A stretch of 64,000 nucleotides of DNA, taken from positions 41,253 through 105,252 of the forward strand of contig CACMDY010000003.1 of assembly GCA_902612605.1 (NCBI GenBank). Reading direction: 5' to 3'. Origin of the DNA: an uncultured Pelagibacteraceae bacterium. Lineage in GTDB: Bacteria > Pseudomonadota > Alphaproteobacteria > Pelagibacterales > Pelagibacteraceae. Positions 17,257-49,350 of this stretch are shown here, piece by piece. The notes below the pieces were generated by a model. It worked only from the letters and a program-made list of their open reading frames with translations. It did no database searches and was not told where the DNA came from. The translations under genes and the position numbers were made by a program. How positions within the stretch are numbered: the first letter of the stretch is position 1; each line of letters begins with the position of its first letter.

Positions 17257-17727
17257 TTAATTATTAGATTTCCATTTATTATTACAATCAAAGAAAGAGA
17301 TATATTTTTCATTATCTTTAGTGTTCATGTTTTTAGTGACTTCATGAATTAATTCACCAGTTGATCTATTTAAAAAGACTGACTCTGAGTATTTTTTTTC
17401 TTTATCTATATTTTTAAATAAGATTGTGTCGTTTTTAGCAATTCTGACGTCATCCTTACTAATATCTGAATAAGTATCTATAAATTCTGATAAACCATTA
17501 ATAGTAAGTTTACTTGGTTGTGCTGCCACAACTTTTAAAACTTTTTTTTTATCAACTTCAATATTATCAGCAGTAAAAGTTTGATAATTAAAATCTTTAT
17601 TTTTGATCATTATTTTTTCTAATTTACAATCAAAAGTCATTTTAAAATCATGGATGATATCAGTATTTTTAGAAAAACTAATTGATGATGAAAAAAGTAA
17701 AATTAATATCCAAAATATAATCTTCAT
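17257..17727 (-). CDS. Exported hypothetical protein, 156 aa
   Basis: Signal peptide, two Cys near the termini of the mature chain, abuts the upstream gene. No recognisable family. Confidence 0.7.
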   Translation of the reverse strand: MKIIFWILILLFSSSISFSKNTDIIHDFKMTFDCKLEKIMIKNKDFNYQTFTADNIEVDKKKVLKVVAAQPSKLTINGLSEFIDTYSDISKDDVRIAKNDTILFKNIDKEKKYSESVFLNRSTGELIHEVTKNMNTKDNEKYISFFDCNNKWKSNN

Positions 17728-45287: not shown

Positions 45288-46343
45288 TTAAAAGCAAACA
45301 ATATGATCAATATGAATGGGTCTTTTTATACCAAATTTTTCATCAACTTCATGTTGATGAATATGATGAGAATGCACAAAAACTGGTATTAATTTATTAC
45401 TTAATGTTTTTAATGTATAAATAAAATTTGAACCTCTGAATTTTCTATCTACTACTTCAAGTTTAAGATTACTTGCATCATCGTGTTGTAAGTCTTCTGG
45501 CTGTATTAAAAGTTTTACTTTAGATCCTATTGGGAAAGGTCTTGCAAAATTTCCTGTGATTGTTCCTAAATCCTCGTTTTCAAGACTTTTTGGACTAGTA
45601 ACTTCAGCTGGTATTAAAGTTCCTCTATTTAAAAAATTAACTACCTCTACTGAATTTGGTAAATGATAAACGTTATATGGATCGTCATATTGCTTTAATT
45701 CACCATCTAATATTATTCCACATTTGCTGCCTAGATAAAAAGCTTCGTAAGAATCATGTGTAACAATTATTGTTGTTATTTTAGAATTTGTTAAAATTTG
45801 CTTTAATTCAACTTGAATTTCCTCCTTAAAACTTTGATCTACATTAGATAATGGCTCATCAAGCATTAGTAAATCTGGCTGAGAGACCAATGACCTTGCT
45901 AAAGAAGCTCTTTGGGCTTCACCGGCACTAATCTCATGTGGAAATTTATTTAATATTTTGTTTAAGTTTAAAAAATTAATTACTTCTTTAGTTTGTATTT
46001 TTTTATCATCTTTCACTCTATCTGAACCAAGATTAATATTTTTTTCTATATTGTAATGAGGAAATAAGCTGTTCTCTTGAAATGATAGAGCAATATTACG
46101 ATTTTCTGGTTCGATATGAATATTTTCAGAAGAAATTGTTCTGCCTTTTAGATTAATTTTACCTTTATTAATTTTTTCTAAACCTGCAATAGTTCTTAAT
46201 ATTGTAGTTTTGCCTATGCCTGATGGGCCAAGTAAACATACAATTTCACCTTCATTTTCAATTTTTAAAGAAACATTATTAACTTTATTTTTCCCGCCAG
46301 CAGCAAAGGATACATTTTCAATTTCAAAAAAATTATTAGCCAT
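45288..46343 (-). CDS. fbpC: Fe(III) ABC transporter ATP-binding subunit (FbpC/FutC-type)
   Basis: Walker A GPSGIGKT, signature ISAGE, Walker B LMLDEP, C-terminal TOBE-like region. Confidence 0.88.
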   Translation of the reverse strand: MANNFFEIENVSFAAGGKNKVNNVSLKIENEGEIVCLLGPSGIGKTTILRTIAGLEKINKGKINLKGRTISSENIHIEPENRNIALSFQENSLFPHYNIEKNINLGSDRVKDDKKIQTKEVINFLNLNKILNKFPHEISAGEAQRASLARSLVSQPDLLMLDEPLSNVDQSFKEEIQVELKQILTNSKITTIIVTHDSYEAFYLGSKCGIILDGELKQYDDPYNVYHLPNSVEVVNFLNRGTLIPAEVTSPKSLENEDLGTITGNFARPFPIGSKVKLLIQPEDLQHDDASNLKLEVVDRKFRGSNFIYTLKTLSNKLIPVFVHSHHIHQHEVDEKFGIKRPIHIDHIVCF

Positions 46344-47953
46344 TAGTCTTTCAAAATAAATTTAGACGTAATCAAAATAAATGTACTTGCAATTAATATC
46401 AAGAATAATGATGGAACTGCTGCAGCCTCTAAGAGATCTTGAGATGCAAAAATATATGCTGTTGTAGCGAATGTTTCAAAGTTAAATGGTCTCAATATCA
46501 AAGTTATAGGTAATTCTTTTATTACTTCTATAGTAATCAATATCCCTATAAGAAAAACAGAATTTTTTAAATAAGGAACATGAATTCCTAAAAAAGTTTT
46601 TATTTTCGAGTAACCAAGAAGATAAGAACTTTCATCAATTGACCTATTTATTCTTTCATAACCAGTTTTCAAACCGTTATAAGCTAATGAATAAAATCTG
46701 ATAAAATAAACTATTACTAAACCAAAAATAGATCCTATAAATACTCTCTTTATAGAATTAAATTCAAAGGCTTTTATAAAAGTATTATCAAACCAAGCAA
46801 TAAAAGTGATGAATGCTACAGCTAAAATTACACCAGGGATTGCATAACCAGTAATAGAAAATGTTGTAAGATAATTTAAGAATTTACTTTTAGTTACTCT
46901 GTTTCCATAATTTGAAATAAATGAAAAAATTACTAGAACAACACTTGATAAAAATACCAAGTAAATTGTGTTTATAAATAATTGAAAAGTATTTAAATCA
47001 AATAAATTTTTTGGAAAAATTATTGTCCAATACAACATTTGTAAAACAGGGAATAAAAAGCTGACTAAAAAAACTAAAAAACAAAATCCGAATGCTAAAG
47101 ATCCTTTTGAAAAGTTTAATTTAATTTTCTTCTTTTCTTTAATTCCTCCCTTAACTGGAGAGTGATATTGAGCTTTTTTTCTTGAGATATTCTCAATAAA
47201 GAAAAGTCCTAGAATAAATAATAGTAAAAAAAATGAGAGTTGATTTGCAAAAGCTAAATCGTCAAATGATATCCATGAATCATATATTCCTGTAGTAAGA
47301 GTTGCTATTCCAAAGAATGATACTGCTCCAAAATCTGATAATGTTTCCATAGCAACTAATGCCAAACCCGCAACTATCGCTGGTCTTGCAGATGGTAAAA
47401 TGATTTTAAAGAAAGACTTATATTTTGAAAAACCTAGATTTTGTCCTAATTCTATTAAATTTTGAGACTGATAATGAAAAGATGCTCTAGTTAGAACATA
47501 AACATATCCAAATAGTGAAAAAGAAATAGATAAAATAGCACCAAGCATACCATCAAATTTTGGGATGGATTGATTGTATTCACCAGGTCCAAATAAAGAT
47601 TTCAATATTGAATATAGTGTTCCAAAGTTTTCAAAAAAAGCAGTTAATGAATAAGCATAAATGTAAGCAGGTACTGCAAAAGATAATATTAAAGCCCATT
47701 TAAAAAATTTAACGCCTGGAAATTCATAAAATGATACTACATATGCACAGCCTACACCTAAGATTAATGTAAGAAATAAAACTCCTAAAAGTAATATTAA
47801 AGAATTATAAATATATTCAATTAAAAATGTATTTTTTAAAATATCAAAGTAGTTAGTTGTTTCTTGGAAGAAACTTGCAAACACAGTCAAAATTGGAATT
47901 GCAACAACAAATGAAACTAAAAATGAAGAAAGGTACCATGAATTAAATTTCAT
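46343..47953 (-). CDS. fbpB: Fe(III) ABC transporter permease (FbpB/FutB-type)
   Basis: Duplicated permease domains; PAYIYAY, PSARPAI.AG.ALV.METLSDFG, GYAIPG and KELP.TL.LRPFNFET motifs. Confidence 0.9.
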   Translation of the reverse strand: MKFNSWYLSSFLVSFVVAIPILTVFASFFQETTNYFDILKNTFLIEYIYNSLILLLGVLFLTLILGVGCAYVVSFYEFPGVKFFKWALILSFAVPAYIYAYSLTAFFENFGTLYSILKSLFGPGEYNQSIPKFDGMLGAILSISFSLFGYVYVLTRASFHYQSQNLIELGQNLGFSKYKSFFKIILPSARPAIVAGLALVAMETLSDFGAVSFFGIATLTTGIYDSWISFDDLAFANQLSFFLLLFILGLFFIENISRKKAQYHSPVKGGIKEKKKIKLNFSKGSLAFGFCFLVFLVSFLFPVLQMLYWTIIFPKNLFDLNTFQLFINTIYLVFLSSVVLVIFSFISNYGNRVTKSKFLNYLTTFSITGYAIPGVILAVAFITFIAWFDNTFIKAFEFNSIKRVFIGSIFGLVIVYFIRFYSLAYNGLKTGYERINRSIDESSYLLGYSKIKTFLGIHVPYLKNSVFLIGILITIEVIKELPITLILRPFNFETFATTAYIFASQDLLEAAAVPSLFLILIASTFILITSKFILKD

Positions 47954-47979
47954 ATATTATAATCCGCCTTATAATCATG

Positions 47980-48023
47980 AAAATCAAAAGTGCCCATGGT
48001 TTAGGAGACCTAACCATAGGCAC
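47980..48023 (-). terminator. Intrinsic terminator between the Fe SBP/small ORF and the permease
   Basis: Minus-strand RNA GUGCCUAUGGUUAGG-UCU-CCUAAACCAUGGGCAC forms a 15-bp stem with one G-U pair and one bulge, followed by UUUUGAUUUU. Confidence 0.78.
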
Positions 48024-48036
48024 AAACTTTAGAAAA

Positions 48037-48210
48037 TCAAAAATTAAATACTTTTAGGATATGCGGAACCTCCTTAGTTTTAATTTCAGACAATTTTCTA
48101 TTATTTACACGTTTATTGATTTTTTCACACTCCGAAGCACATGCAGGACAGGCTTTGGTAGATTTATTATAATCAACTTCCGTAGTAAATTTTTTTTTAA
48201 CAGCTGTCAT
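48037..48210 (-). CDS. Small Cys-motif protein (CxxCxxxC), 57 aa
   Basis: Manual translation: MTAVKKKFTTEVDYNKSTKACPACASECEKINKRVNNRKLSEIKTKEVPHILKVFNF*. The ATG immediately follows the SBP stop, and the ORF stop lies just before the terminator. Confidence 0.65.
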   Translation of the reverse strand: MTAVKKKFTTEVDYNKSTKACPACASECEKINKRVNNRKLSEIKTKEVPHILKVFNF

Positions 48211-49233
48211 TTACTTCCAACCAGCAGCTAACATTACTTCTAATGCGTCTGCTTGTTTTGCACCGTATGACTTAACACTTGTTTTAGTATCCATTACAAA
48301 GTTCATCTCTTTGCCTGGAACTAAATCATTAGGTGTTACACCATCGATCATTGGATACTCAAAAGTATTATTTACAATGTGATTTTGAGCCTCTGTTGAT
48401 AATAAAAACTCAACTAATTTTACAGCATTAGCTTTGTTTGGTGCATGTTTAAGCATACCAGCTCCACTAATATTTATGTGCGTTCCTCTATCTTGTTGAT
48501 TAGGGAAAAAAGGCATTACTTTTTTTGCTGCTTCTTGTTGTTCAGCACCTTTTTTTCCAGATAACATCAATGCATGATAGTATGTATTTGCAACAGCAAT
48601 ATCAGCTTCTCCAGCTGCAACAGCCATGATTTGAGCACGGTCGTTACCTTTTGGAGTTCTAGCCATGTTTGCTACAACAGCTTTAGACCATTCTGCTGTT
48701 TTAGCTTTACCATTATTCTTAACTAGTGAAGCAACTAAAGACTGGTTATAAATGTTATTAGATTTTCTTATTACTAATCTACCTTTCCATTTTGGATCAG
48801 CTAGACCTTCGTAAGTCATGCCATTTAGTTCATTTGCATTTACTCTTTCAGGTGAATAATAAATTATTCTTGCTCTCTTAGCTATTCCAGTCCATTTAGC
48901 AGATCTAAATTGTGTAGGTACAGCATCCTTAATAGCTTTTGACCAACCAGCATTTTGCATCATGCCTTTGGCTGCGAATGCACCTAATCTTCCAGCATCA
49001 GCTGTGATGTATAAATCTCCAACACAGTCTGCTCCCTCTTCTGTAATTCTTTTTTGCAGGGCTTTATCTTTACCTGATACTACGTTTACTTTAATTCCTG
49101 TTGCTGCTGTGAACTTTTCATATAATTGAATGTCAGAATCATAGTGTCTTGCACTAAAAATATTGACCTCAGCTGCAATCGTAAAACTTGAAATTAAAGC
49201 AAAAAACAATGAAATTATTGTCAATTTTCTCAT
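48211..49233 (-). CDS. futA: Fe(III) ABC transporter periplasmic binding protein (FutA/FbpA/Sfu-type)
   Basis: Start moved from 49302 to 49233 (AAGGAG SD, signal peptide MRKLTIISL...). Motifs SARHY, TADAGRL, RARII.YS, SNNIYNQSL, GNDRAQI, ANTYY and EYP. Confidence 0.92.
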   Translation of the reverse strand: MRKLTIISLFFALISSFTIAAEVNIFSARHYDSDIQLYEKFTAATGIKVNVVSGKDKALQKRITEEGADCVGDLYITADAGRLGAFAAKGMMQNAGWSKAIKDAVPTQFRSAKWTGIAKRARIIYYSPERVNANELNGMTYEGLADPKWKGRLVIRKSNNIYNQSLVASLVKNNGKAKTAEWSKAVVANMARTPKGNDRAQIMAVAAGEADIAVANTYYHALMLSGKKGAEQQEAAKKVMPFFPNQQDRGTHINISGAGMLKHAPNKANAVKLVEFLLSTEAQNHIVNNTFEYPMIDGVTPNDLVPGKEMNFVMDTKTSVKSYGAKQADALEVMLAAGWK

Positions 49234-49281
49234 TCTACTCCTTAAATTTATATTTATATTAAACGTAATTTGTCCTGCAAT

Positions 49282-49350
49282 GCGGATGATAACTATTCTC
49301 AATGAAAATGATTATCAATTGCAATATTGTCGCAATTGATAATCAATCGC
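49282..49350. promoter_or_regulatory. Three Fur-box-like operators, two forming a 14-bp inverted repeat
   Basis: Against GATAATGATAATCATTATC, 49304-49322 (minus) matches 15/19, and 49282-49300 and 49332-49350 each match 13/19. The perfect IR is 49309-49322/49332-49345. The region lies directly upstream of the Fe(III) SBP. Confidence 0.7.

What the first reader, a model, noticed from the sequence alone, without database searches (positions are those of the whole stretch)
48037..48210. Hidden 57-aa CxxCxxxC protein co-translated with the Fe(III)-binding protein
Missed by the ORF track. Its ATG follows the SBP stop with zero gap and its stop lies 13 nt before a strong terminator. It therefore shares the highly expressed, presumably iron-repressed SBP transcript but not the permease/ATPase portion. 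It has no signal peptide and carries CPACASEC, a three-Cys motif able to bind an Fe-S cluster or metal, followed by a basic helix. It could be an iron sensor, chaperone or reductase partner for imported Fe(III), or a regulator of read-through into the permease gene. I know of no such component in Fbp/Fut/Sfu systems.
Basis: partly seen in the sequence, partly recalled or inferred. Interest (0 to 1): 0.75.

Follow-up and report, generated by a model that had tools for sequence, protein, structure and literature searches.

The report
Conserved small Cys protein in SAR11 iron operon
Between the iron-binding protein gene and the permease gene of the SAR11 iron-uptake operon lies a real, conserved gene for an uncharacterised 57-residue cysteine-bearing protein, and its coding sequence also folds into conserved RNA hairpins; its function is still unknown.

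Summary
The 57-aa ORF lies at 48037-48210 on the minus strand. Its ATG abuts the SBP stop codon. Its TGA lies 13 nt before a -22 kcal/mol terminator.

It is a real gene. An intact homologue sits between SBP and permease in 76 of 80 Pelagibacteraceae genomes and in 118 of 118 complete metagenomic loci. Conserved residues keep their identity while their codons change, and dN/dS is 0.2-0.35 between deep clades.

Metatranscriptome contigs join it to the SBP 3' end at high depth. The permease is about ten-fold lower.

It is not unknown to databases. NCBI and JGI call it "hypothetical protein". It has no Pfam, NCBIfam, PDB or Foldseek relative and no literature, and it appears restricted to Pelagibacterales.

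Two corrections:
- Only CxPC (C21, C24) is invariant. C28 is lost in one divergent subfamily and His50 in several, which weakens the three-Cys Fe-S idea.
- Synonymous sites are frozen, at 5-9 times less diversity than the flanking genes. Covarying helices overlap the ORF, so the region is also structured RNA.

Some lineages have deleted the module. One lineage lacks the terminator.

Function remains inferred: most likely a thiol-based metal or redox accessory protein of iron uptake.

The parts
49304..49345 (-). Perfect 16+16 palindrome TGATTATCAATTGCGACAATATTGCAATTGATAATCA. Its 3' half plus flank matches the E. coli Fur-box consensus 15/19 (49322..49304). It lies 70-110 nt upstream of the SBP start.
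   Evidence: Only two sites in the 64-kb window reach 15/19 or more. Iron induction of the orthologous operon comes from PMC2864753.
48211..49233 (-). Periplasmic solute-binding protein gene (sfuC-type, Fe(III) ABC transporter). The start is taken as the ATG at 49233 (MRKLTIISL..., signal-peptide-like) after the SD AAGGAG. The stop is TAA at 48213-48211.
   Evidence: Pfam SBP_bac_6/8/1/11. Start and SD. High metatranscriptome contig depth.
48037..48210 (-). Small ORF of 57 aa: basic, with no signal peptide, and the founding member seen here of an unnamed Pelagibacterales-only family.
48127..48150 (-). Codons C21-P-A-C24-A-S-E27-C28. C21, C24 and E27 are invariant across the family (family consensus CxPC). 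C28 is near-invariant but is A, V or T in subfamily E.
   Evidence: AF2 places the start of helix 22-35 here.
48115..48177 (-). Weak long-range RNA helix H0. (A/G)UUGAUU (codons 12-14) pairs with AAUC(A/G)AU (codons 30-32).
   Evidence: RNAalifold on 54 diverse sequences found 3 of 7 pairs with compensatory changes (GC/AU/GU 38/6/8; UA/CG/UG 37/6/9). The folding energy is low.
48030..48100 (-). RNA hairpin H1. It covers codons R38-F57, the stop codon and UUUUCU. The apical part carries the SD-like AAGGAGG.
   Evidence: Cells paired: 79% against 42-58% for slid controls. Compensatory pairs: AU/UA 41/13, UA/CG 42/10, AU/GC 36/12. This is also the trough of nucleotide diversity (pi 0.003 in a 60-nt window).
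47976..48023 (-). Intrinsic terminator or attenuator. The stem is GUGCCUAUGGUUAGG/CCUAAACCAUGGGCAC (48023-47990), followed by UUUUGAUUUU.
   Evidence: dG -22.4 kcal/mol; z -5.4 for the region. The stem sequence differs and covaries between clades. Expression steps down across it.
47943..47987 (-). Permease leader hairpin. The SD AAGGCGGA (47970-47963) sits in the loop and the start codon AUG (47953-47951) is paired with an upstream CAU.
   Evidence: The sequence is nearly invariant in the main clade. A promoter-like TTTTCA-16-TATAAT match overlaps it.
46343..47953 (-). Fused two-domain ABC permease gene (sfuB-type).
   Evidence: Pfam BPD_transp_1, two stretches. Low transcript depth.
45288..46343 (-). 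ABC ATPase gene (sfuA-type) with a TOBE domain.
   Evidence: Pfam ABC_tran and TOBE_2. NCBIfam hit to the ferric ABC ATP-binding protein at 1e-51, below its cutoff.

Best explanation
The ORF is a genuine gene, specific to the SAR11 lineage, for a small basic cytoplasmic protein. The protein is a helix-loop-helix, with an invariant CxPC motif at the N-terminus of the first helix and usually a third Cys one turn later.

The gene sits at the end of the abundant, iron-limitation-induced SBP transcript. The small protein is therefore made together with the binding protein, and in excess over the permease and ATPase.

The same 260 nt also act as RNA in cis. Hairpins overlap the ORF (H0 and H1). An intrinsic terminator follows. 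A hairpin around the permease ribosome-binding site comes next. Together these stabilise the 3' end of the SBP message and hold down permease expression.

For the protein I commit to a thiol-based metal or redox role in iron uptake. The CxPC(xxxC) thiols, probably in a dimer, would bind or reduce incoming iron, or sense it at the cytoplasmic face of the importer.

Shown: the gene is real, it is under protein-level selection, it is positionally fixed in the operon, and it is co-transcribed with the SBP. The RNA helices covary and synonymous sites are frozen.

Inferred: translation, cytoplasmic location, iron regulation in this strain, the role of the RNA structures, and any metal or redox chemistry.

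My sub-probabilities: real protein-coding gene 0.9; functional cis-RNA structure 0.7; Cys-based metal or redox function linked to iron 0.35-0.4.
For: Presence and position:
- An ORF with the Cys motif follows the SBP in 78 of 80 genomes, and 76 are full length.
- It is intact in 118 of 118 complete metagenomic loci.
- Distant members show the same SBP - small ORF - permease - ATPase order.

Coding selection:
- Codons switch synonymously at conserved residues: L40 TTA/CTT/CTA/TTG, S41 TCA/TCT, C21 and C24 TGT/TGC.
- dN/dS is 0.2-0.35 between deep clades where dS is about 1.
- Start position, gap to the SBP stop and frame relative to the SBP all vary while the ORF is kept.
- The antisense frames are not conserved.

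Protein features:
- C21, C24, E27, N36, R38 and F55 are invariant in 99 diverse members.
- AF2 with a 99-sequence alignment gives pLDDT 76, with helices at 22-35 and 45-55.

Transcription: metatranscriptome contigs run from the SBP through the ORF at depth 20-200, against 0-15 over the permease.

Iron link: a Fur-box-like palindrome lies upstream. In HTCC1062, sfuC, sfuB and sfuA mRNAs rise 16-, 10- and 5-fold under Fe limitation (PMC2864753).

RNA layer:
- Third-position diversity is 0.0195, against 0.100 in the SBP and 0.172 in the permease. It is below every 57-codon window of either gene.
- H1 is supported by compensatory changes and by both controls. H0 has weaker support.
- The terminator stems covary between clades.
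Against: - There is no evidence of translation (no Ribo-seq or proteomics) and no biochemical data.
- C28 is absent from subfamily E and His50 from several subfamilies, so a fixed three- or four-ligand site is not a family trait.
- The module has been deleted (L078, L075), truncated (L073) or frameshifted (L060) in some lineages, so it is dispensable there.
- Subfamily E has no terminator and overlaps the permease start, so 'SBP transcript only' is not universal.
- No sequence or fold relative exists to lean on.
- Part of the apparent amino-acid conservation (R38-K39-L40 and the C-terminal EVPHILKVFNF) coincides with RNA helix H1 and could be driven by the RNA.
- The shallow-clade freeze could alternatively reflect a recent local sweep by recombination. 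L059 is a mosaic with its breakpoint at the terminator.
- Contig depth is a crude measure of expression.
Confidence: 0.5

Rival explanations
1. Mainly a cis-regulatory device. What matters is the act of translating the ORF and the RNA hairpins it melts, which together tune mRNA decay, termination or permease translation. The peptide itself has little or no function of its own.
For: - Synonymous sites are as constrained as non-synonymous ones within the main clade (pi at codon positions 1/2/3 = 0.021/0.019/0.0195).
- Covarying helices overlap the ORF.
- The terminator and the permease leader hairpin follow immediately.
- The terminator loop is complementary to the permease SD in several clades.
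- Whole-module deletions remove the ORF and the terminator together.
Against: - The residue pattern is kept over deep divergence while nucleotides change. Examples are the Leu TTR/CTN switch, the invariant CxPC, and E27 in the N-terminal half outside H1.
- Subfamily E keeps the ORF without any terminator.
- The stop codon lies 13 nt (elsewhere up to about 27 nt) before the stem, too far for a terminating ribosome to block the hairpin (inference).
Confidence: 0.2
2. A small basic nucleic-acid-binding protein, for example a Zn-stabilised RNA chaperone or regulator of an iron-sparing response. It would be functionally analogous to the Fur-regulated basic proteins FbpA/B/C of Bacillus subtilis, rather than a handler of iron itself.
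For: - Net charge is about +7.
- The most conserved stretch is the basic amphipathic helix KIxKRINNRKLSEIK.
- A CxxC at a helix N-terminus is typical of Zn knuckles (general knowledge).
- It is expressed with the iron-stress marker sfuC.
- SAR11 is thought to rely on post-transcriptional control under Fe stress (PMC2864753).
Against: - No match to any nucleic-acid-binding family or fold.
- Only two invariant Cys, so a monomeric Zn site is incomplete.
- Strict linkage to the transporter operon suggests a transporter-related role.
Confidence: 0.15
3. The 3' end of the SBP mRNA (H1 plus terminator, about 120 nt) is released as a trans-acting 3'-derived small RNA. The ORF overlap would make the locus a dual-function RNA.
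For: - The ultra-conserved stretch covers codons about 23-57 plus the stop (pi down to 0.003).
- Two tandem stem-loops end in a U-tract.
- The apical sequence AAGGAGGUUCCGCA is conserved, with G/C-ending codons kept in a 29% GC genome.
Against: - There is no evidence of a discrete short transcript; contig data cannot show ends.
- No Rfam match.
- No target was identified.
- The conserved apical sequence changes between subfamilies along with the encoded residues.
Confidence: 0.1
4. A chance or decaying ORF with no function.
For: It is lost, truncated or frameshifted in 4 of 80 genomes. It evolves faster than the SBP, with dN about twice as high.
Against: It is intact in more than 190 independent loci, with a conserved residue pattern and dN below dS. 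More than 1600 database relatives were found, all of similar length.
Confidence: 0.03

Closest known systems
FeoC of the FeoABC ferrous-iron transporter
   Same: It is a small cytoplasmic Cys-bearing protein encoded inside an iron-uptake operon next to the permease, with a proposed sensing or regulatory role. This is the nearest functional analogy.
   Different: FeoC is a winged-helix protein of about 78 aa with a four-Cys loop that binds an Fe-S cluster, and it belongs to a different transporter class. No Pfam FeoC hit was found. The predicted fold here is all-helical and has no PDB match. Only two Cys are invariant here.
Fur-regulated small basic proteins FbpA/B/C of Bacillus subtilis
   Same: These are small, basic proteins made under iron limitation, with a proposed post-transcriptional role. 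They are cited in PMC2864753.
   Different: They are not transporter-linked, have no Cys motif and are unrelated in lineage. Homology was not tested here because no Fbp sequences were at hand. The analogy rests on size, charge and regulation only.
Intercistronic hairpins or attenuators in ABC-transporter operons (e.g. malE-malF and hisJ-hisQ REP elements)
   Same: A stable stem-loop after the binding-protein cistron gives more SBP mRNA than membrane-component mRNA. The same step-down is seen here.
   Different: Here the space between SBP and hairpin is filled by a conserved coding ORF. That ORF is itself structured RNA, and the hairpin is a full intrinsic terminator rather than a REP repeat.
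Dual-function RNAs that both code and fold (e.g. SgrS/SgrT, RNAIII/hld)
   Same: A short ORF under protein-level selection overlaps conserved RNA helices, and synonymous sites are suppressed.
   Different: No trans-acting RNA function or separate transcript is shown. The structure sits at the 3' end of a long mRNA.
CxPC or CxxC motifs at a helix N-terminus (thioredoxin CGPC; HMA-domain GMxCxxC; ferredoxin CxxCxxCxxxCP)
   Same: There is local motif resemblance. PDB profile hits fall on the CopA HMA loop-helix and on the first ferredoxin motif of ethylbenzene dehydrogenase beta subunit. This probably explains JGI's label 'Fe-S-cluster-containing dehydrogenase component' on one member.
   Different: All hits are non-significant (E 1.4-1.7). 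The protein is too short for those folds, the first ferredoxin Cys is a Ser here, and there is no Pfam match. These are leads, not membership.

Membership tests
4Fe-4S ferredoxin-type domain (JGI label on one homologue) | Four-Cys motif CxxCxxCxxxC(P) | tested here: not met
   Only CxxCxxxC is present. The position of the first ferredoxin Cys is Ser17, with one extra residue in the spacing.
4Fe-4S ferredoxin-type domain (JGI label on one homologue) | Significant match to Pfam Fer4 models or to solved ferredoxin sequences | tested here: not met
   Pfam gave 0 families for the window protein and none for 29 diverse members. The best PDB hit has E = 1.4.
FeoC | Match to the FeoC family or a winged-helix fold, and location in a feoAB operon | tested here: not met
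   No Pfam hit. AF2 predicts two helices only. The neighbours are the SBP, permease and ATPase of an ABC importer.
HMA (CopZ/Atx1-like) metal-binding domain | Beta-alpha-beta-beta-alpha-beta fold of about 65-70 aa with GMxCxxC, and a Pfam PF00403 match | tested here: not met
   No Pfam hit. PDB profile hit to CopA at E = 1.5 only. No strands in the model. Foldseek returned 0 matches.
Zinc ribbon / ISL3-transposase N-terminal zinc finger | Two CxxC pairs, and a score above the family cutoff | tested here: not met
   NCBIfam NF033550 scores 15.3 bits against a cutoff of 180. Only one CxxC is present.
Fur-regulated small basic proteins (functional class) | Small and strongly basic | tested here: met
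   57 aa, with 13 K/R against 6 D/E (sequence).
Fur-regulated small basic proteins (functional class) | Expression repressed by Fur and iron | tested here: inconclusive
   A Fur-box-like site (15/19) lies within a 37-nt palindrome upstream of the operon. The orthologous operon is iron-induced in HTCC1062 (PMC2864753). There are no data for this strain or for the small ORF itself.
Fur-regulated small basic proteins (functional class) | Sequence homology to FbpA/B/C | not tested
Pfam and NCBIfam gave no hit of that kind.
Intrinsic terminator acting as intercistronic attenuator | G+C-rich stem-loop followed by a U-tract | tested here: met
   A 15-bp stem with dG -22.4 kcal/mol is followed by UUUUGAUUUU.
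Intrinsic terminator acting as intercistronic attenuator | Transcript abundance drops across it but read-through exists | tested here: inconclusive
   Metatranscriptome contig depth is 20-200 upstream and 0-15 downstream in 8 runs. Contig depth is crude, and some high-depth contigs extend 35-90 nt past the stem. In HTCC1062 the induction ratios are 16x, 10x and 5x along the operon.
Dual-function (coding plus structured) RNA | ORF under protein-level purifying selection | tested here: met
Dual-function (coding plus structured) RNA | Conserved base-paired structure with compensatory changes overlapping the ORF | tested here: met
   For H1, covariation is 0.174 against 0.04-0.09 for slid controls. 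There are 72 cells changed on both sides against 41 +/- 5 in shuffles, with 0 of 500 shuffles reaching the observed value. H0 is weaker. Caveats: the structure was derived from one member, and the events are shared within clades.
Dual-function (coding plus structured) RNA | Independent function of the RNA (in trans or in cis) | not testable with these tools
   This needs end-mapping, reporters or recoding experiments.

The most novel reading that the evidence does not exclude
The tail of the sfuC message is a two-in-one iron-stress module. It would encode a Cys-based iron or redox sensor protein. The same nucleotides would form a structured, possibly processed, regulatory RNA. Together they would supply the post-transcriptional iron-limitation control that SAR11, with its minimal regulator set, has been proposed to use but for which no component is known.
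Probability: 0.1. Interest if true: 0.85.

Novelty: new variant of a known kind. Interest (0 to 1): 0.55.

Why it matters
[quoted passage not shown] Its sfuC gene is used as a marker of iron limitation. The classic HTCC1062 annotation numbers sfuA, sfuB and sfuC consecutively (SAR11_1236-1238) with nothing between them.

A conserved, co-transcribed, Cys-bearing protein in that operon would be an unrecognised part of how these cells handle iron. I found no publication describing it. It could be measured in existing metatranscriptomes.

The locus is also a clean natural example of a short coding sequence whose synonymous sites are held by RNA structure. That matters for small-ORF discovery and for reading dN/dS in streamlined genomes.

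Tried and rejected
- **Protein family and structure searches.** Pfam, NCBIfam, a PDB sequence profile and Foldseek on a pLDDT-76 model gave no significant relative.
- **Weak look-alikes rejected.** The ISL3 zinc finger, the ferredoxin motif and the HMA loop are motif look-alikes only. The first AF2 run with 62 close sequences was too poor to use (pLDDT 61).
- **Rfam.** Only spurious snoRNA or miRNA hits with E above 1.
- **Antisense ORF 48061..48231 (+).** Rejected: that frame is open in only 22 of 111 diverse sequences.
- **Paralogues.** None in the window.
- **Ribosome occlusion of the terminator.** Rejected on geometry: 13 nt here, and a variable distance elsewhere.
- **Antiterminator pairing.** I looked by eye for pairing between the ORF and the terminator 5' arm and found only 5 bp, so I dropped it.
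- **Duplex-energy test for H1.** Own locus against cross-locus gave only a small difference (-8.2 vs -7.0 kcal/mol). Both strands (AGAAAA and UUUUCU) are nearly invariant. The column-wise count was more informative.
- **Meyer et al. 2009.** I checked whether this paper had flagged the region as a structured RNA. Its sfu-associated IGR lies between sfuC and SAR11_1239, upstream of sfuC, not here.
- **HTCC1062 itself.** I could not confirm whether it carries the ORF.

Full report
**1. The observation**

The minus strand of the window carries, in order:
- a solute-binding-protein gene, 48211-49302 as listed, with the likely true start at ATG 49233 after AAGGAG;
- a 57-codon ORF at 48037-48210;
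- a hairpin;
- a fused ABC permease (46343-47953);
- an ABC ATPase (45288-46343).

The ORF's ATG directly follows the SBP's TAA. Its TGA is followed by 13 nt and then by a 15-bp stem (48023-47990, dG -22.4 kcal/mol) with a UUUUGAUUUU tail. The protein is MTAVKKKFTTEVDYNKSTKACPACASECEKINKRVNNRKLSEIKTKEVPHILKVFNF. It is basic, has no hydrophobic leader, and has Cys at positions 21, 24 and 28.

**2. Is it a gene?**

A word-indexed search found 195 relatives of 49-60 aa. An exhaustive profile search of 1.84 billion representative proteins found 64 clusters, all small. A profile of the distant clusters found 1605 proteins.

I anchored on the SBP rather than on the ORF and fetched 80 Pelagibacteraceae genomes with SBP identity of 79-99%.
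- 78 have an ORF with the Cys motif just after the SBP, and 76 of those are full length.
- The gap to the SBP stop varies (0, 4, 6, 7 or 35 nt).
- The start codon (ATG or GTG), the frame relative to the SBP and the distance to the hairpin also vary, yet the ORF is kept.

A DNA pattern fixing only codons 21-39 returned 120 metagenomic loci. All 118 complete ones have an intact 49-75 aa ORF running to the family's conserved C-terminus.

In 111 distinct sequences, conserved residues are encoded by alternating synonymous codons. Examples are Leu40 TTA/CTT/CTA/TTG, Ser41 TCA/TCT, Cys TGT/TGC and Ile43 ATT/ATA/ATC. Between deep clades, where dS is about 1 in both genes, the small ORF has dN/dS of 0.2-0.35, against 0.09-0.17 for the SBP. 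The other five frames are not conserved.

Distant members sit in the same place in syntenic Pelagibacter contigs: SBP - small ORF - permease - ATPase. I conclude that it is a real protein-coding gene (about 0.9).

**3. Is it hidden?**

Not entirely. The exact protein occurs on at least 1000 public contigs. NCBI and JGI call it 'hypothetical protein [Candidatus Pelagibacter sp.]' (for example MDA9683647.1; a relative is WP_440935145.1). One JGI record says 'Fe-S-cluster-containing dehydrogenase component', which is probably a motif artefact.

The original HTCC1062 numbering leaves no gene between sfuC and sfuB (SAR11_1238 and 1237; PMC2864753). I found no paper that mentions it.

**4. What kind of protein?**

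No Pfam, NCBIfam, PDB-sequence or Foldseek relative exists. With a 99-sequence alignment, AF2 gives pLDDT 76 (82-89 over residues 21-57). It predicts helix 22-35, a turn, and helix 45-55.

I sorted the members by eye into five informal subfamilies (A-E), which differ by an insertion before the Cys motif and by the C-terminus. The invariant positions are C21, C24, E27, N36, R38 and F55. The family consensus is CxPC, with Pro in 85% of sequences.
- C28 is near-invariant but is A, V or T in divergent subfamily E.
- His50 is Tyr in subfamily D, Gln in some members of A, and Lys or Thr in E.

A fixed three-Cys (plus His) site is therefore not the family's common denominator. A CxPC pair at a helix N-terminus is. 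From general knowledge, such pairs act as redox dithiols (thioredoxin CGPC). They can also act as half-sites that bind a metal or a cluster across a dimer. That is a lead, not a test.

**5. Transcript architecture**

Contigs from eight marine metatranscriptomes run continuously from the SBP into the small ORF. Assembler depth is 20-200 there and 0-15 over the permease.

Many contigs end near 48045-48057. This is where the ultra-conserved ORF tail meets strain-variable terminator sequence, so it is an assembly branch point, not an RNA end.

A 37-nt perfect palindrome (49309-49345) lies upstream of the SBP. A 19-nt site overlapping its 3' half (49322..49304) matches the Fur box 15/19. In HTCC1062, sfuC, sfuB and sfuA mRNAs rise 16-, 10- and 5-fold under iron limitation.

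It is not universal. In subfamily E (L081) the ORF overlaps the permease start by 14 nt and there is no hairpin.

**6. An unexpected second layer**

In 61 close genomes (SBP at least 97% identical), third-codon-position diversity is 0.100 in the SBP and 0.172 in the permease. In the small ORF it is only 0.0195, no higher than at positions 1 and 2. That value is below every 57-codon window of either flanking gene (minima 0.038 and 0.114). The trough (pi 0.003) covers the last 15 or so codons, the stop and about 12 nt beyond.

The RNA is predicted to fold. I took the hairpin from the window's own fold (H1, 48030-48100). It pairs codons 38-45 with codons 53-57, the stop codon and UUUUCU. I counted it on 79 diverse sequences:
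- 79% of cells pair, against 42-58% when partners are slid;
- the covariation score is 0.174 against 0.04-0.09;
- 72 cells have changes on both sides, against 41 +/- 5 in shuffles (0 of 500 shuffles reach the observed value);
- clear swaps occur, such as AU/UA 41/13, UA/CG 42/10 and AU/GC 36/12.

Examples are AAAUUAAA/UUUAAUUU changing to AAAUCGAA/UUCGAUUU (L103) or to UAUUAAAG/CUUUAAUA (subfamily B).

A weaker helix, H0, pairs codons 12-14 with codons 30-32 and also shows compensatory changes. The terminator stems differ and covary between clades.

Downstream, a hairpin holds the permease start codon in its stem and its SD in the loop.

There are caveats. The structure was derived from one member, the changes are shared within clades, and a local recombinational sweep could add to the shallow freeze. 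L059 is a mosaic whose breakpoint lies at the terminator.

I rate a functional cis-RNA role at about 0.7. The most economical role is protection of the SBP mRNA 3' end together with restraint of permease expression.

**7. Dispensability**

L078 has a clean deletion, with the SBP stop running straight into the permease ATG. L075 keeps only 19 codons fused to the permease leader. L073 is truncated after codon 39 and lacks the hairpins. L060 has a frameshift in an A-run. The module is therefore accessory.

**8. Mechanism**

I commit to a small cytoplasmic thiol protein, made with SfuC under iron scarcity, that binds, reduces or senses incoming iron at or near the importer (0.35-0.4). It is encoded in a stretch that also works as RNA.

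The rivals are:
- a translated leader-like regulatory device (0.2);
- a basic nucleic-acid-binding regulator (0.15);
- a 3'-derived sRNA overlapping the ORF (0.1);
- no function (0.03).

Direct control of the terminator by the terminating ribosome is unlikely on geometry.

**9. Novelty**

This is an uncharacterised family that appears restricted to Pelagibacterales and sits in a well-studied operon. The nearest analogies are FeoC, the Fur-regulated basic proteins, intercistronic attenuators and dual-function RNAs. It is a member of none of them. I file it as a new variant of a known kind, with interest 0.55.

Noticed in passing
L083, L076, L071, L079 and 20+ metagenomic loci (e.g. L085, L122, L145, L176); compare window 47990-48023 and 47963-47970: In subfamilies C and D the terminator loop carries UUACCC(U/C), which is exactly complementary to the permease ribosome-binding site AAGGGUAA (duplex -9 to -14 kcal/mol). 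All 25 loops carrying ACCC were of this type. Own-locus pairing is stronger than cross-locus pairing (-5.9 vs -4.4 kcal/mol on average). In the window's clade the permease SD is UAAGGCGGA and the loops are GUCUCCU, UUCCCCU or GGGGAU, with weaker complementarity. This suggests a loop-to-SD pairing that represses permease translation in read-through transcripts.
   Followed up: partly
window 49304-49345 (-): A perfect 37-nt palindrome lies upstream of the SBP gene. A 19-nt site overlapping its 3' half (49322..49304) is a 15/19 match to the Fur-box consensus. Only one other site in the window reaches 15/19 (17583-17601).
   Followed up: partly
window 47943-47987 (-): The permease leader folds so that the AUG pairs with an upstream CAU and the SD sits in the loop. 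The same bases also match a sigma-70-like promoter (TTTTCA-16-TATAAT) ending 3 nt before the ATG. The sequence is nearly invariant in 61 close genomes.
   Followed up: partly
window 48031-48041 and 47979-47989 (-): The 11-mer UUUUGAUUUUC occurs twice, once across the small ORF's stop codon and once as the terminator's U-tract. The AGAAAAUU of codons 38-40 could therefore pair with either copy.
   Followed up: no
window 48067-48074 and 48004-48012 (-); many type-A loci in A3: The ORF contains a perfect SD-like AAGGAGG in the apical part of hairpin H1, with GAG and CCG codons kept despite 29% GC. Many type-A terminator loops carry the anti-SD-like UCUCCUU. A sub-clade with AAGGAAG...AUCUCCUU in the ORF instead has GGGGAU in the loop. 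This may be a loop-loop contact. It is not tested.
   Followed up: no
L078, L075, L073, L060: Lineages have lost the module in different ways. L078 has a clean deletion. L075 keeps a 19-codon remnant. L073 is truncated after codon 39 and has no hairpins. L060 has a frameshift in an A-run, which may be a sequencing error in a single-cell assembly.
   Followed up: partly
L059:5188-5300: This locus is a mosaic. The SBP and small ORF are of the window's clade. The leader and permease (MLRKINIWYITSLL...) are of another clade. The switch lies right after the terminator, so it is a recombination breakpoint.
   Followed up: partly
L081:5001-5207: Subfamily E has a 68-aa protein with GCAPC..EA (no third Cys). 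Its ORF overlaps the permease start by 14 nt and there is no terminator. In this lineage the small protein is therefore on the same message as the permease.
   Followed up: partly
P0001, P0003, P0047, P0054, P0103, P0105, P0111: Several database entries extend past the stop as ...FNFWFS.... The gene callers read TGA as Trp, so these entries are annotation artefacts.
   Followed up: no
cluster 1: The 90%-identity cluster holding the window's 57-aa protein has an unrelated 404-aa Myxococcales RND adaptor protein as its representative. This looks like a clustering artefact in the protein collection.
   Followed up: no
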